Notes: generated by a model from the letters alone, not told the origin. Numbered from the stretch's first letter, positions 27,620 through 60,030 are shown. The stretch is 64,000 nt of DNA from Tubiluchus corallicola (GCA_030141605.1 JAQGDQ010000150.1:430493-494492), one strand, 5' to 3'. Numbers and translations are program-made.

Positions 27620-30600
27620 CTATGGTATGCCAAACAGAAAAAATGCCATCAGTCCAGCACTTAGTGCACCAGAGCAGGGTACTGTGACAAGCCAAGCTAA
27701 AATGATATTGCGAAACAAATTCCAATCAACTGCTGCCCGAGAACGCACCCATCCTACAGAGACGACAGATCCCACTTTGCAGTGCGTAGTACTGACGGGA
27801 ATTCCTAAGTTAGATGCTGCAAGTACAGTAGTGGCTGCTCCAATTTCTACGCAAAACCCACTGTAAAGAAAAAACGTTGTAGTAGTACTACTTATTCAGC
27901 TAAACTAAGTTACGAAAAGCATAACAAAAGAATTGTCGCTGCATAAAATTTAAAGTTGTGAGATTAAAATCTTACAGACTAATATTTTCCTAAAAAGGAG
28001 GAGTAAAATCATCAGTAAACTACACTGCACTTGCTACGTCCTGCATTATTACATTGTATTTCCGCCTGTACCACCAATATGACACCGCCCATAGATGCAA
28101 TATAGGTAATAAAAGAGGAATCGCACAATTTTAGCGTTGTAGGCTTGTAACACAAGAATGAAGTCATGCATTTTTGCAGACTGGGTCGATGCTGGTGAAC
28201 AAATGTCTCGCACTCAAGTGTCTGGCACCCAAACGGTTTCACCCAGGTTTCCCTCGCCCAAATGGCTTGTCCGCGTCCAAAAACCAAGAACACACTTTGC
28301 CTAAACAAACTTTTGCATTATATATATATATATAATACACAGGAAAAGCGTAGAAGAAATTTATTAGACACTTGTGGTTTGTGTGTGTGTGTGTGTGTGT
28401 GCAACCGTGACCGTGTCTTGTGTTGTTAACAAGCTCTGCAGATTTTGCCAAAAAATAAAGTAATTTTATGTTTAACATGATAAAAGTGTTACCATTTTGT
28501 GTGTAAATATCTACAAAAGAAGAAGGTAATAAACATTTGCACTTATACAGTTGGATTTAGATATTAAAAGTGAAAAATTGTTGGATTTCTTCAAGTTCTA
28601 TTGCAATTCTACAATTCATGGTCAGCGTGTCTTAGTTGAGGCTATTGTGTCATTGATTAGACCTTAATTGGTCTATTCACCTGTCAACAAAAACGTTCAG
28701 GTAGATAGCAACGCAAACTGGTCCTACAATGGGTGAAAGGAAAAGCTGCGCTCTATGTAGAAATGCGAAAAAGCCAGTTATCAGGAAGCTAGTTCCAATT
28801 GTAATAGGTGAAGCGAAGCATTCTACGACAAAAACAATTCAACGGACATACAGCCAGGAACAAGCAGAGAAAGAGAATATTCTGTTTCCTTAACTCAAAT
28901 TAACCAGCGCAGTTGGGGCGACATCGACAACCTAAAAACGCAGATAACAGAATTAGTCGAACAGGAAGAAAATCAAGCAAAGTTACGTCATATATTATAT
29001 TGGCTACTAGAAAATCAAGAATATGTAGTGCAAAAGTCTGTACTAGACAAACTGTCTAAAATGGACTTGGAATTAGGAAAAATATGAGACAATTTAACGA
29101 AGATGTCAGACAAACAAAAAGCGTCTTATAGCTCATCGGTAAGGGAAAGCACAAAAAAGAGGCAACCAACCGTCGTGGTTAAAACTGCTGCTGAGGGAAA
29201 ATCCACAAACAGAATTAGCCGCAAACCTGAAAGTGCAATGACAGATATGCATTATAAACCCGAGTGCAGTGTGATTATTGAGAATGTCACTGAGAAAGAA
29301 ATTGTGAAAAATAGTATGAGCATTAAGAAACATATAAGTGAAGTATTTCCTAGAGTTAGATTTGACACGGCATATAAAACAGCGAGAGGAAAGATACAGC
29401 TTCAGCTTAAGAATGAAGATGATGCAAATGCAATAGTGGGTGGTTTGCAAGCTAACTTCTTAGGTAAAGGCACAGTGGCAAGAAAACCAAAATCAAATGC
29501 CGTTGGCATCCTGAAAGACTGTGACACATCTTTGACAGATGGAGAGGTAGAAGAAGAAATTAACGCAATATTTCCAGATGCCAAAGTAGAACGGTTTAAG
29601 CGCAAAGACAAAACCCCATTGCCATTAGTCAAAGTCAGTTTTCTTTCAGATAAAGATCTCGAATTAGCAATCAGAGAAGGCATACCAGTGGGGAATATAT
29701 ACTGTAATGTTGAGAAATTCCTCTTCAAAAAACGGCCTTTATTATGTTATAACTGTTACTTTTTTGGTCATGTGGCTAAATGGTGCGACCGTAAAAGTGT
29801 ATGCTGCATGTCTCGAATGCATGTCAGACAGACAGAATGAAGTGTGAAAATTGTAAGAGCGAACACCAAGCTTGGTCTCGTGATTGCCCAATTTATAAAC
29901 AACAGGAAGACCAGTTAAATGGATACGATGATATAGTTCAAGCAGACGTTTAAAAGTTTGCCAGATTAATATTATTAAATTTTCCTGTGGGTCCAAAATG
30001 GCGATTGATAAGTTTGCAAACGAGAATAACTGTGATGTAATTGCTGTACAAGAAACAAAAGTAATTGAAAAAGATTTGGGTGAAATATCTTTAACAAATT
30101 ATAATAGTTTTGCGAAAGCTTCTAGGGGATACTCGGGTGGATGCGCTGTGCTAATTAGAAAAAGCATTACTGGCTGTCGAGTACGAGAGAGCTTGAACTT
30201 CCGGAACTGGATTCAGTGTTGATAATAATGCAAGCATATGGTGACAAATATTTAATGAATTCAATATATGTGACACCAAACTCAAAAGAACTGATACAAA
30301 AATATATAAAAAAACGTTAGAGACGCCCAAAAGTTTGCTAATACTCACGGAATACGTAACTTAATGTCCATTGGTGATCTCAATGCTCGCAGTTATCAAT
30401 GGGATGTAAATTCAAATGAACATGGGCGATTAATAGACGATTTACTAGCTGATATAAACTTGGACTTAACAATACCAGCTCCCAACACTGAGACGTTCAG
30501 TTCTATAACTGGCAAAAGTATTATAGATATTAATGTTATTATAACAAATAACTTTACAGCAGCAAAGGTTCTCTCTCAAACAGTGGACAAAGATGCGGAA

Positions 30601-57700: not shown

Positions 57701-60030
57701 CTCATCCCTGGATATTGAAGACCGCTCGCGCGTGTAGCATAAACGTCTTGCATGACCTGACAAAAATGTTCTGACTGCGATTGAGGCGACACACAATGAG
57801 GGGAATCTTTTTATGCAAAGTTGTATTACTTAGCATTCGTCGTTGCTATTCTTTACATGTTCCTTCTCACCTATCTTGTTTTGTTTACTTTATTTTTTAC
57901 TTTACCACTTGTTTACAATACGTTTAACACACACGCAATCATTGTCCAAAAAAGAAGTAGTTTTTGCCATGAAAATGTAAAATTCTTTAGCTCTGGGAGG
58001 GCGGGCAACCGCCCCTCCTGACCCCCGCCTCGTACGCCTACGAAGTCGTGAATGTAAGCATGAGTTTTGATCTAAAACTGAATAGTATCTAAAACTACCA
58101 AAGTACAATTTCTATTACCGCAGAAAGAGAGCTCTTCTTACCTTTAGTACAAAATCTGGTGGCGTCCCAGGCTTAACGGTTGGTCGAAGAACGCCATCGT
58201 GATGAGAGTGTATCAACGTCTCGTCTAAGTCTAAAACAAGCACTTTCCTGTGCACTATACCTATTATAATAGAAAACGAGTTAGGAGACACCGCAAAGAC
58301 CAAAACGAATTTACACGGGGAAGAAAAGAGAATTTTATGCATCCCAATGAACTTTCCGTACAAAGTTATATTACTTAGCATTACGCTTACCTGTTTGAAA
58401 GATTTGTGCAATTGGAAACCGAAATTCCTATTAATTTAAAGGACAAGAAAAGGTGTACCCGAAATACGTTTGAGAAAAATCGCCTTAAAAATTACACCAC
58501 TTTGCAGCAATTTTATGCTTATATCTTACTCGCACTGAAAGTAATTTTAGTTTGTTTTCATTTTAAATCTCCCGCAATACTGTTCCGAAGTCGCCATTAC
58601 ATGATGTCATGTACCAAACGTAAATGAAGGGAAGAGAAAGCAATGTTAAATTATATCTCAAAAGACTTTCCCAGTGTGCACCAATGATTCACTGAAAAAC
58701 ATAGTATTGATCTTACTAACAAGACAAAGTAATTTGTACATTCACTTAATTAATGAAGTGCACATTATGGATGTTGTAATTACTGTTTCAAATACAAGTT
58801 TTACACAGGGCTACTGTTAATGCAGGCTTAGTATGCAATAAGACGGCATGTAAATGATATAAAATTTCAAGACAAATTTTTTAACCGTTATTTGTGAAAA
58901 GTGTTCCCTTGTGCTTTAAAGGTTTCTAAACACGAACAAAATATCTCCACCTTCATTTTCTCTCTTTCTCTTGCTGTGTCGCACTCAGTCACTGTCTCTC
59001 TCTTTTCATCTCTCTCACATCTTTTCTCTTTTCTTTCTGGACTGCGGAAAAAACTTGGATTGGCACAGAAACGAAAAATGCCAACAAATGTCACAAGCAC
59101 ACCAACTAAGAACAGCATCACACTCTTACAATAATTAGCACGACGGTTATAAATCAGAGAAGGAGGCAGTGAAAAGTTATGGGACAAGCAGGACTCGAAC
59201 TCAGAACCTTGTGATTTTACGCAGCACAATCTATTACTTAAATTTCCACTGCAACAATTGAAAAACAGCAGCATCACATACTCACACAAGCCCCATGTCT
59301 TATTTACTGATAAAAATATTAGAGTACAAAATGGTTACTCAAGCTAGAAAAAATGTTTACTCACTAAGTCTATGCTTGGACAAGGGTGAAAGCGGTATAC
59401 TTTCATAACGAATTGTTTGGTGTTGAATTGCCTATGATAAAATAAAAAAAAATAATTACACTGAAACAGCAAATTTATAAAATCAGTATCTGTGCTACAA
59501 ATGGAATACTAAAACCGTTAAAACTGTTTCAACTGCCTTTATTATGCAACTGTAATAGTCACAATTGCATCTCACATAGTAATAGCCTATATCTTCAGTT
59601 GTCAACTAGGCTAGTTACCTATACTAATAATGGCAGGCTTACACTTTAGGCGGTTCTTTTTGACGGGTTTTCGTATTGTCCAAATCAAAAATACTGATGG
59701 GCTTGGTGTAATTTTACTACTGTGCTACAGTTTCTAGTGTTTACTACAATATCGAACATCTTGGCAAAGCGCCAAATCATGCTACAACCGATTCAGATTC
59801 ATTATAACTAATAATATTAGTAACACAGATATTAAAACGCTTGAGCACTCGACTAAAGTGCAATTATCAAATTATGATGGGAGAGTATCAACAGTAAAAT
59901 AAAAAAATAACACAATAATCACAAATCCTACCGCTCTGACAGCTTTCCTGAGCACGTAGCATAAAAACTGCCAAATTCTTGACGCAAACAGTATAAACGC
60001 CCGAAGGCCCATCTGAAAGTCTTTTATCAT
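51718..60030 (-). CDS. CTDNEP1: CTD nuclear envelope phosphatase 1 (Dullard), HAD/FCP-SCP family; terminal exon(s) not found
   Basis: Exons 60030-59932 ([20 protein letters not shown]), 59431-59365 ([22 protein letters not shown]), 58260-58142 ([26 protein letters not shown], DxDxT motif), 55707-55636 ([24 protein letters not shown]), 53608-53492 ([25 protein letters not shown]), 51829-51718 ([27 protein letters not shown]). All phases are consistent. The expected DNAIPI.SWF...DALRF exon(s) were not found. Confidence 0.95.
52993..53438. repeat. 56-59-bp GC-rich minisatellite, about 8 copies
   Basis: Unit gggaacctgtgtacagcctctgcgctgatttacc(acc)agaatttccgggaggacc, contiguous, no unique spacers. 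Confidence 0.92.
53663..54030 (-). mobile_element. 3' fragment of an RTE-like LINE with a duplicated tail
   Basis: Minus-strand [25 protein letters not shown], followed by a (GAT)n tail. The terminal ~85 bp occurs twice (about 53663-53730 and 53743-53815). Confidence 0.65.
54108..54592. mobile_element. hAT-family MITE
   Basis: 17-bp TIRs (c/t)agtgttgcttcggata and an 8-bp TSD gtttagat/gtttaggt (7/8 match). Confidence 0.85.
54835..55560. mobile_element. hAT-like MITE carrying a nested SINE
   Basis: 15-bp perfect TIRs tagtgatgggtgatt / aatcacccatcacta. Flanks cccagaga / (ca)gccagaga form an imperfect TSD. Confidence 0.75.
55200..55460 (-). mobile_element. tRNA-derived SINE
   Basis: The minus strand has a B-box-like gtgagttcgaacc followed by gggtcataccaaagactttaaaaatggtacc, a core typical of invertebrate tRNA-SINEs, and ends in an (ATT)n tail. 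Confidence 0.65.
55752..56300. repeat. 41-bp minisatellite, about 13 copies
   Basis: Unit cacaatcaagcttggtttcaaaaattcaacaattatgggca, head-to-tail. It explains ORFs 55863 and 56023, whose 41-aa period equals three units. Confidence 0.95.
58440..58670 (+). mobile_element. Second copy (fragment) of the TTAA|AGGAC Kolobok-like element
   Basis: Shares gaaaaatcgccttaaaaatta...cagcaattttatgc...ttttcattttaaa..ctcccgcaatactgttc with 42502-42700. Confidence 0.6.

What the first reader, a model, noticed from the sequence alone, without database searches (positions are those of the whole stretch)
27620..60030. Possible in-frame CTDNEP1-SLC20 (phosphatase-phosphate transporter) chimeric gene
Seen in sequence: CTDNEP1 stops after exon 6 at a phase-1 donor (TAT CCA G|gtgagt, 51718). 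The first SLC20 exon I can find begins at a phase-1 acceptor on the same strand (ttttag|GT TCA AAG, 46463). Splicing them gives ...[22 protein letters not shown]..., a 16-exon, 2157-nt ORF (718 aa) with no internal stop. Manual codon-pattern scans found neither the CTDNEP1 C-terminal exon(s) (DNAIPI.SWF..DALRF, about 48 aa) nor the SLC20 N-terminal exon (TM1 plus GANDVANSFGT). All remaining exons look intact. Established knowledge: CTDNEP1 is the lipin-activating HAD phosphatase, and PiT needs both GxND signatures for transport. Inference: this is either a phosphatase/transporter fusion I do not know of, a deletion allele producing a read-through transcript, or an assembly gap. Against function: the chimera lacks one PiT signature and part of the phosphatase fold, and it joins a cytosolic domain to a normally extracellular loop (YNGS sequon). 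Phase 1/1 matches also arise by chance fairly often.
Basis: partly seen in the sequence, partly recalled or inferred. Interest (0 to 1): 0.85.

Follow-up and report, generated by a model that had tools for sequence, protein, structure and literature searches.

The report
Retrotransposon scar joins two broken genes
In this stretch of animal DNA, likely from a priapulid worm, the front of a phosphatase gene and the back of a phosphate-transporter gene sit in frame on either side of a retrotransposon, but public DNA runs hold sequence that leaves both edges without entering the retrotransposon, so this is likely a recent chromosome break or an assembly mis-join that would disable both genes, not a new working fusion gene.

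Summary
Observation confirmed, with one correction. CTDNEP1 exons 1-6 and ten SLC20 exons lie on the minus strand with GT-AG ends and join into a 2274-nt, 757-aa frame (not 2157 nt/718 aa). Profile searches that find six control exons at E≤3.4e-13 find neither missing piece in the window.

The functional-fusion reading is not supported. The missing pieces hold the residues equivalent to CTDNEP1 W205/S232/V233 and PiT2 D28/E55. A 90%-identical relative's SLC20 is full length. An in-frame match has about a 37% chance.

Between the genes lies a 5'-truncated LINE (48840-51072) with no target-site duplication and a 20-nt filler at its 5' end. In deep DNA run X1, the contigs matching both edges continue into other sequence (the rest of the cut repeat; more satellite units), not into the LINE. 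A LINE-free version of both flanks therefore likely exists.

Best reading: a recent LINE-bridged deletion or rearrangement on this haplotype (0.5). Main rival: assembly mis-join (0.3). Not shown: the size of the lost segment, whether it holds the missing exons, and any transcript. My look-ups found no earlier scan note of this on other DNA.

The parts
59932..60030 (-). CTDNEP1 exon 1 (ATG; N-terminal helix), 99 nt
59365..59431 (-). CTDNEP1 exon 2, 67 nt
   Evidence: iE 3.4e-13
58142..58260 (-). CTDNEP1 exon 3 with DLDET motif, 119 nt
55636..55707 (-). CTDNEP1 exon 4, 72 nt
53492..53608 (-). CTDNEP1 exon 5, 117 nt
51718..51829 (-). CTDNEP1 exon 6 (last one present), 112 nt, phase-1 donor CAG|GTGAGT; ends at residue 195 of the 243-aa P0021
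   Evidence: one X1 contig at 165x covers it
51342..51713 (.). 13-bp tandem array directly behind the exon-6 donor; depth near single-locus level in X1
51073..51259 (.). 21-bp satellite array at the LINE 3' edge; an X1 contig with 0 differences over 51073-51188 carries further 21-mer units in front of 51073 instead of the LINE tail
   Evidence: tables 7 and 8 (record 6)
48840..51072 (+). 5'-truncated LINE (RVT_1 E 2.3e-30; RTE-like by recalled C-terminal and tail features), antisense to the genes; frameshifting deletion near 49161 and a changed RT motif; no target-site duplication
48820..48839 (.). 20-nt filler between the cut repeat and the LINE 5' end; not found elsewhere in the window with up to 5 mismatches
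48100..48819 (.). multi-copy repeat cut off at 48819 (left end approximate); 3 X1 contigs, including the one that best matches this copy, run on past 48819 into sequence absent from the window
46362..46463 (-). first SLC20 exon present (residue 65 onward of P0121), 102 nt, phase-1 acceptor; weakest of 15 acceptors in leave-one-out scoring
   Evidence: one X1 contig of 3488 nt covers 45300-48631 with 0 differences
45542..45682 (-). SLC20 exon, 141 nt
44265..44350 (-). SLC20 exon, 86 nt
40921..41017 (-). SLC20 exon, 97 nt
38133..38252 (-). SLC20 exon, 120 nt
35595..35989 (-). SLC20 exon (large intracellular loop), 395 nt
34974..35147 (-). SLC20 exon, 174 nt
34096..34241 (-). SLC20 exon with the C-terminal GGND signature, 146 nt
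33620..33805 (-). SLC20 exon, 186 nt
27620..27860 (-). SLC20 last exon with stop, 241 nt; 97% identical to P0121

Best explanation
The window likely holds a recent, haplotype-specific deletion or rearrangement, bridged by a 5'-truncated LINE, that joins CTDNEP1 intron 6 to SLC20 intron 1 and would knock out both genes rather than make a working fusion. Shown: the exon layout; the LINE with no target-site duplication and a 20-nt filler; and X1 contigs that match both edges but continue into other sequence. Inferred: the LINE's 3' tail was attached inside the 21-bp satellite of CTDNEP1 intron 6, and its 5' end was joined to a distant break inside a repeat in SLC20 intron 1 (either in one step, or as a later deletion that ended inside an older LINE). 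The DNA lost or displaced in between is inferred to carry the CTDNEP1 3' exons and the SLC20 promoter and first exon. A transcript from the CTDNEP1 promoter could splice exon 6 to 46463 in frame, only because both old introns are phase 1. Its product is predicted to be a misfolded phosphatase on a non-transporting PiT remnant.
For: (1) The anatomy matches published LINE-mediated deletions: no target-site duplication and short 1-33 bp insertions at the 5' junction (PMC7058536, passages). Here the longest word shared by the two edge regions is 7 nt, and its right-hand copy lies inside the LINE; the filler is 20 nt. (2) Left edge, X1: three contigs share a loose end behind 48819. Record 2 (48701-48819, 1 difference, 174.6x) is the only contig laid at 90% that has the window's letter at 48731, and it runs on for 81 nt into sequence not in the window. 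(3) Right edge, X1: record 6 matches 51073-51188 with 0 differences and carries further 21-mer units in front of 51073. (4) Both genes were under purifying selection until recently. SLC20 shows 10 changes on the window lineage against 13 on the P0121 lineage in 525 columns, and no departure private to the window in 114 conserved columns; CTDNEP1 shows 3 departures in 92, one of them private and conservative. (5) Relatives are full length: P0121 (508 of 562 identical) carries both signatures, and P0021 (169 of 195 identical) carries the C-terminus. (6) Both junction introns look old. The homology of P. caudatus model P0123 starts at the same residue, and six database CTDNEP1 models leave the family alignment at residues 195-201 and continue with G. 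(7) The window seems to be a different haplotype from the one X1 shows: at 51951 X1, X2 and X3 all differ from it, and at 48751 X3 has a contig with its letter. This fits a polymorphism.
Against: No contig bridges the LINE, so the length and content of the missing segment are unknown. It could be only a few hundred bases of repeat and hold no exon. Record 2 may be a paralogous repeat copy: at 85% likeness a second X1 contig also has the window's letter at 48731 (window-like depth 316.7 against 174.6). Record 6 lies in a multi-copy satellite (398x). The LINE copy differs from the family majority at six sites plus a 16-nt deletion, while the left flank differs from X1 at 1 of 3576 letters. That suits a copy that already existed elsewhere, and so also a mis-join. 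A haplotype null for two conserved genes should be rare, so catching it in an assembly is somewhat unlikely. That the two genes are neighbours in the normal allele is not shown; the P. caudatus proteins lie on contigs of different length.
Confidence: 0.5

Rival explanations
1. Assembly mis-join: a contig builder or gap filler joined SLC20 intron 1 and CTDNEP1 intron 6 through repeats (the cut repeat, a young LINE copy from another locus, the 21-bp satellite). The animal has two ordinary genes and the junction does not exist in it.
For: The junction can only lie in the 2.5-kb repeat block 48632-51174 or in the 13-mer array; unique sequence on either side is covered by locus-like contigs. The LINE family is young (an X3 contig differs at 2 of 611 letters). 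X1 record 2's depth (174.6) fits all molecules bypassing the LINE (179 expected) better than half of them entering it (120-137) (weak, contig depth is a poor copy measure). The two flanks differ unequally from X1: 1 of 3576 against 11 of 1572 letters (8 of the 11 are one cluster and 3 probably lie at a contig end in an array, so the p value overstates it).
Against: A repeat-jump mis-join uses junctions that really exist, so the locus contigs should enter the LINE at one edge at least; in X1 the best-matching contigs leave it at both edges. Two sharp junctions plus a 20-nt filler are the published pattern of a real LINE-mediated deletion. The window does not look like X1's own haplotype (51951; 48751), so X1 need not be the assembled specimen.
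Confidence: 0.3
2. Extra chimeric copy: a LINE-bridged duplication made this junction while intact CTDNEP1 and SLC20 persist elsewhere in the same genome. This is the usual route to a young chimeric gene.
For: It has the same junction anatomy as the best explanation and avoids the cost of a double null. LINE-bridged rearrangements other than deletions are described (PMC7058536, passages).
Against: In X1, exon 6 and the first SLC20 exon are each covered by one contig (165x and 193x), inside the 157-224x range of 16 locus-like contigs that I picked from the tables. No second copy shows in that sample. No further CTDNEP1 or SLC20 exon lies in the 27 kb left of the SLC20 stop.
Confidence: 0.08
3. 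Fixed functional fusion: the species has lost both pieces for good and makes a 757-aa membrane protein that would act as a non-catalytic, non-transporting scaffold or phosphate sensor. The LINE is an unrelated small insertion-deletion.
For: The frame is open with canonical splice sites, and all 16 exons are intact. Exon 6 and the first SLC20 exon look single-copy in X1. The P. caudatus SLC20 model P0123 also lacks the same N-terminus. The LINE-free version is not shown to hold the missing exons.
Against: 24 of 116 highly conserved CTDNEP1 columns are missing, among them the equivalents of W205 (core; W205R is listed among inactivating mutations) and S232/V233 (NEP1R1 interface) (PMC11145253, passages; alignment). 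The equivalents of PiT2 D28 and E55, critical for transport (PMC3126765, passages), fall in the missing 64 residues. Yet the remaining transport residues show no relaxation, which a long-lived non-transporter should show. P0121 at 90% identity is a normal SLC20. 0 of 389 stored homologues match both families. The phase match has a 0.37 chance. The acceptor at 46463 ranks 64 of 250 AG sites in the intron, below several in the antisense LINE, and two AATAAA lie in that intron.
Confidence: 0.06
4. Interleaved genes: the missing exons exist on the same chromosome outside the window (SLC20 first exon beyond 64000, CTDNEP1 last exons beyond position 1), and both genes are spliced normally across each other.
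For: P0123 lacks exactly the same SLC20 N-terminus, which would fit a long first intron in priapulids. The window cannot exclude exons outside it, and no whole genome was available.
Against: It needs a CTDNEP1 intron of over 51 kb that skips ten SLC20 acceptors and crosses a VPS13-like gene, and an SLC20 intron that skips six CTDNEP1 exons. It leaves the LINE-edge pattern unexplained.
Confidence: 0.06

Closest known systems
LINE-1-mediated deletions and LINE-bridged rearrangements (PMC7058536; passages read)
   Same: 5'-truncated LINE between two flanks that do not share a target-site duplication; a short insertion at the 5' junction; flanks that continue differently in LINE-free DNA.
   Different: Those are somatic human L1 events with poly(A) tails and a measured copy-number loss. 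Here the element is an invertebrate LINE with a short-repeat tail, presumably in the germ line, and neither the lost segment nor the junction was confirmed in reads.
CTDNEP1/Dullard/Nem1 HAD phosphatase (human structure 8UJL/8UJM; P. caudatus XP_014668346.1 = P0021)
   Same: Residues 1-195 present, 86.7% identical to P0021, with DLDET and DNSP motifs intact.
   Different: Lacks the last 48 residues, including the W205, S232 and V233 equivalents.
SLC20/PiT phosphate transporters (PF01384; P0121, unnamed Logan protein; P. caudatus XP_014673465.1 = P0123)
   Same: 562 residues collinear with P0121 residues 65-626, 90.4% identical, with the C-terminal GGND signature intact.
   Different: Lacks residues 1-64 with the N-terminal GANDVANS signature and the D28 and E55 equivalents.
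Intron-to-intron fusion genes made by deletions or duplications (e.g. TMPRSS2-ERG, TFG-GPR128; recalled, not read; one search listed no paper with the TFG-GPR128 term)
   Same: 5' exons and promoter of one gene placed before the 3' exons of another, with compatible phase.
   Different: No transcript is shown here, and neither partner keeps a complete functional domain.

Membership tests
LINE-mediated deletion/rearrangement | LINE 3' end with its tail at one breakpoint | tested here: met
   ORF ends at 51058 and a short-repeat tail runs to 51072-51073
LINE-mediated deletion/rearrangement | No target-site duplication | tested here: met
   longest shared word 7 nt, with one copy inside the LINE; the control LINE in the last SLC20 intron gave only a 9-nt word and its ends were not defined, so the control is uninformative
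LINE-mediated deletion/rearrangement | Microhomology or short insertion at the 5' junction | tested here: met
   20-nt filler 48820-48839
LINE-mediated deletion/rearrangement | Pre-insertion allele carries extra sequence between the breakpoints | tested here: inconclusive
   both edges run on into other sequence in X1, but nothing links the two edges, the length is unknown and paralogous copies are not fully excluded
LINE-mediated deletion/rearrangement | Junction present in molecules (spanning reads) | not testable with these tools
   only collapsed contigs were served; they drop such paths
CTDNEP1 (active phosphatase) | DxDx(T/V) catalytic motif | tested here: met
   DLDET in exon 3
CTDNEP1 (active phosphatase) | Complete HAD core including the W205 region and the NEP1R1 interface S232/V233 | tested here: not met
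   absent from the window; roles from PMC11145253 passages
SLC20/PiT (active transporter) | Two signature sequences, with D28 and D506 equivalents | tested here: not met
   one GxND in the predicted chimera, two in P0121; PMC3126765 passages
SLC20/PiT (active transporter) | E55-equivalent in TM2 | tested here: not met
   P0121 E57 lies in the missing residues 1-64; the equivalence to E55 is my reading from the spacing to the signature aspartate
Functional chimeric gene | Spliced junction transcript | not testable with these tools
   no RNA holder listed
Functional chimeric gene | Fixed in the species or shared with relatives | tested here: inconclusive
   the closest relative's SLC20 is unfused (P0121); 0 of 389 stored homologues match both families; the LINE junction appears not to be fixed, but the exon content of the other version is unknown

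The most novel reading that the evidence does not exclude
One priapulid-like lineage has fixed a CTDNEP1(1-195)-PiT(65-626) fusion that is spliced and translated. It would be a 757-aa membrane protein that has given up both catalysis and transport and serves as a phosphate-sensing or lipin-scaffolding receptor, linking phosphate status to ER lipid synthesis.
Probability: 0.05. Interest if true: 0.8.

Novelty: new member of a known kind. Interest (0 to 1): 0.15.

Why it matters
If the best reading holds, this is a germ-line example of a LINE-bridged rearrangement in a little-studied phylum that removes parts of two conserved genes on one haplotype: a known process in a new place. It also warns annotators, because gene predictors would call a 757-aa NIF+PHO4 fusion here. 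Only the unlikely fixed-fusion case would surprise a specialist, since it would physically tie phosphate handling to the lipin-activating phosphatase.

Tried and rejected
No whole genome is held, so the missing exons could not be sought outside the window.

RNA: no RNA holder listed; this is no evidence either way. Run X6 (RNA by guess, same species label) laid 5 contigs on 45300-52950 at 85%, all on repeats and none on the three exons; uninformative.

No listed contig covers the window's own junctions at 48820-48840 or 51073, and none of the 3 joints or the 15 of 61 shown skips the LINE. The piece tables are cut (2001 and 5841 pieces not shown) and contigs drop rare paths, so these blanks are not used as evidence. 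I tried by hand to decide from bin depths whether X3's window-like contig continues into the filler; it cannot be resolved.

A search with exon 1 plus 7 intron codons for longer relatives gave 5 candidates, none scoring. A metagenome scan with P0121 gave 172 pattern matches and 0 confirmed.

Fused forms: none of the 120 best hits (of 450) carries PF01384, and none of the 120 best (of 298) carries PF03031. The 150 best of 10666 representative hits entered the cross-check, which found 0 of 389 matching both families. These are top lists, not whole families.

Paper searches for CTDNEP1+SLC20A1+fusion, dullard+phosphate transporter+fusion gene and priapulid+SLC20 each returned 0. No supplements were read.

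Rejected: missing exons hidden in 46464-51717 or on the other strand; two hand-picked candidate exons near 37515 and 34367 (not needed for collinearity with P0121); an N-gap; a simple LINE insertion with both halves of the cut repeat in place (the repeat's continuation is not in the window); an old diverged second copy of exon 6 (one contig only at 85% or more). No fold was run, because the joined protein cannot be submitted.

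
Full report
Observation. The window is 64,000 bases without N. Reading the minus strand and testing boundaries gives six CTDNEP1 exons (60030-51718) and ten SLC20 exons (46463-27620). All 15 introns are GT-AG. The exon-6 donor and the 46463 acceptor are both phase 1, and the joined frame is open: 2274 nt, 757 aa. The CTDNEP1 part is 169 of 195 identical to Priapulus caudatus P0021. The SLC20 part is 508 of 562 identical to the unnamed Logan protein P0121 and 314 of 542 to P. caudatus P0123. P. caudatus is the closest named source for both, so the animal is likely a priapulid (inference; an earlier scan note on this genome says the same).

The missing pieces are really missing from the window. 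tblastn with P0121, P0021 and P0069 finds the exons above but nothing credible for CTDNEP1 residues 196-243 or SLC20 residues 1-64. Profiles from 38 CTDNEP1 and 104 SLC20 homologues, cut to exon size, find 6 of 6 control exons at iE 3.4e-13 to 6e-27; 0 of 7 profiles for the missing pieces do better than iE 0.077. No genome was available to look further.

The in-frame match is weak evidence. From the intron phases of these two genes, a donor of one and an acceptor of the other match with probability 0.37. Both introns look ancestral rather than newly made. P0123's homology begins at the same residue as the 46463 exon. Of 78 CTDNEP1-like proteins examined, 21 stop before residue 205, and six of those leave the alignment at 195-201 and continue with G, as read-through of the same phase-1 intron would give.

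The product would lack what both proteins need. 24 of 116 highly conserved CTDNEP1 columns fall in the missing part. By the alignment to 8UJL these include the equivalents of W205, in the catalytic core and mutated in an inactivating variant, and of S232/V233, whose mutation breaks NEP1R1 binding (PMC11145253, passages only). The predicted chimera has one GxND and P0121 has two. D28 and E55 of PiT2 are critical for transport (PMC3126765, passages only), and their equivalents lie in the missing 64 residues. The remaining exons show no sign of relaxed selection. SLC20 has 10 changes on the window lineage against 13 on the P0121 lineage over 525 columns, and its 8 departures in 114 conserved columns are all shared with P0121. 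CTDNEP1 has 3 departures in 92 columns, two shared with P0021. The simplest reading is two normal genes broken recently. No fused protein appeared among 389 stored homologues, which are top lists only. Three paper searches found nothing on such a fusion.

What lies between. The 5.25-kb interval holds unique DNA to about 48100, a multi-copy repeat to 48819, 20 letters found nowhere else in the window, a 5'-truncated LINE on the plus strand from 48840 to 51072 (RVT_1 E 2.3e-30; RTE-like by recalled features), a 21-bp satellite, a short unique spacer and a 13-bp array. There is no target-site duplication. All four DNA runs show the LINE family continuing upstream of 48840, which fixes the truncation point. 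This pattern is the one described for LINE-mediated deletions: no duplication, and 1-33 bp insertions at the 5' junction in 9 of 63 cases (PMC7058536, passages only).

Public DNA. Four runs hold the stretch (shares 0.86, 0.73, 0.46 and 0.27; two samples, two studies), and none is on record as RNA. All are collapsed contigs. In the deep run X1, one 3488-nt contig covers 45300-48631 with 0 differences at 193x, and one contig covers exon 6 at 165x, so each gene half looks single-copy there. At the left LINE edge, three X1 contigs share a loose end behind 48819. Record 2 (48701-48819, 1 difference, 174.6x) is the only contig at 90% likeness with the window's letter at 48731, and it runs 81 letters on into sequence that is not in the window. 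At the right edge, record 6 matches 51073-51188 with 0 differences and carries further 21-mer units before 51073. So sequence matching both flanks exists without the LINE and with extra DNA where the window has the LINE. Record 2's depth fits all molecules bypassing the LINE (179 expected) better than half entering it (120-137) or a second locus (241). This is weak: contig depth is not a copy number, and the 16 locus-like depths that I picked range from 157 to 224.

Against my reading. Record 2 could be a paralogous repeat copy (a second window-like contig appears at 85%), and record 6 lies in a multi-copy satellite. Nothing links the two edges, so the lost segment could be short and exon-free. 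P0123 lacks the same SLC20 N-terminus; it is one of 4 of 114 long SLC20 homologues that lack the N-terminus or one signature. I read this as an incomplete gene model, but it is compatible with a long first intron or a shared loss. The LINE copy carries six substitutions and a 16-nt deletion against the family majority (of five tested, three are silent and two change a residue), while the left flank differs from X1 at only 1 of 3576 letters and the right flank at 11 of 1572. This fits a LINE older than the junction, and so either a later deletion ending in it or an assembly join. The window differs from X1, X2 and X3 at 51951 and shares a letter with X3 at 48751, so it is probably not X1's haplotype. 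X1's LINE-free state therefore cannot separate polymorphism from artefact.

Would a chimeric mRNA form? The exon-6 donor reads CAG|GTGAGT. The 46463 acceptor is the weakest of 15 in leave-one-out scoring (-0.4; exon 5 scores 0.5) and ranks 64 of 250 AG sites in the new intron, behind several in the antisense LINE. Two AATAAA lie in that intron. Read-through of the donor stops after four codons. A chimeric transcript is possible but would compete with cryptic products. This is untested.

Verdict. The layout is real in the window. It is best explained as a recent LINE-bridged deletion or rearrangement on one haplotype (0.5), then an assembly mis-join (0.3), a duplication-derived extra copy (0.08), a fixed functional fusion (0.06) and interleaved genes (0.06). 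Look-ups of earlier scan notes found nothing on this place, on look-alike stretches or on these words. Interest 0.15.

Noticed in passing
window 15835-16980 (+): 381-codon open frame whose nearest Atlas clusters are VPS13/Hobbit/ATG2 bridge-like lipid-transfer proteins (score 0.92, recognition value low, no Pfam hit). Likely a large exon of a VPS13-type gene on the strand opposite to SLC20.
   Followed up: partly
window about 28600-33500 (+): A second, longer LINE of another family in the last SLC20 intron, with an ORF1-like frame (29088-29840), an endonuclease (PF14529) and an RT (PF00078) in several broken frames.
   Followed up: partly
P0123 (XP_014673465.1): The P. caudatus SLC20 model lacks the same N-terminal piece and has an unrelated N-terminus instead; its PHO4 match starts at profile position 41. 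Possibly a long first intron or an assembly gap in that species too.
   Followed up: partly
window about 52036-52400: Very high-copy short repeat in CTDNEP1 intron 5 (summed X1 depth up to 128,686 in a bin; also hit by X6). A similar stretch is visible by eye near 57530-57590.
   Followed up: no
window 51925-52026: Cluster of 8 sites at which X1, X2 and X3 show three different letter combinations, none equal to the window: several haplotypes or a low-copy repeat.
   Followed up: partly
window 34233-34278: The acceptor of the GGND-bearing SLC20 exon lies in a 24-bp tandem duplication, so a copy of the acceptor context sits just upstream.
   Followed up: no
window 42611-43024, 52995-53438, 55753-56307: Intronic tandem arrays: 207 bp x 2 at 99% identity, 56 bp x 8, and 41 bp x 13.5.
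   Followed up: no
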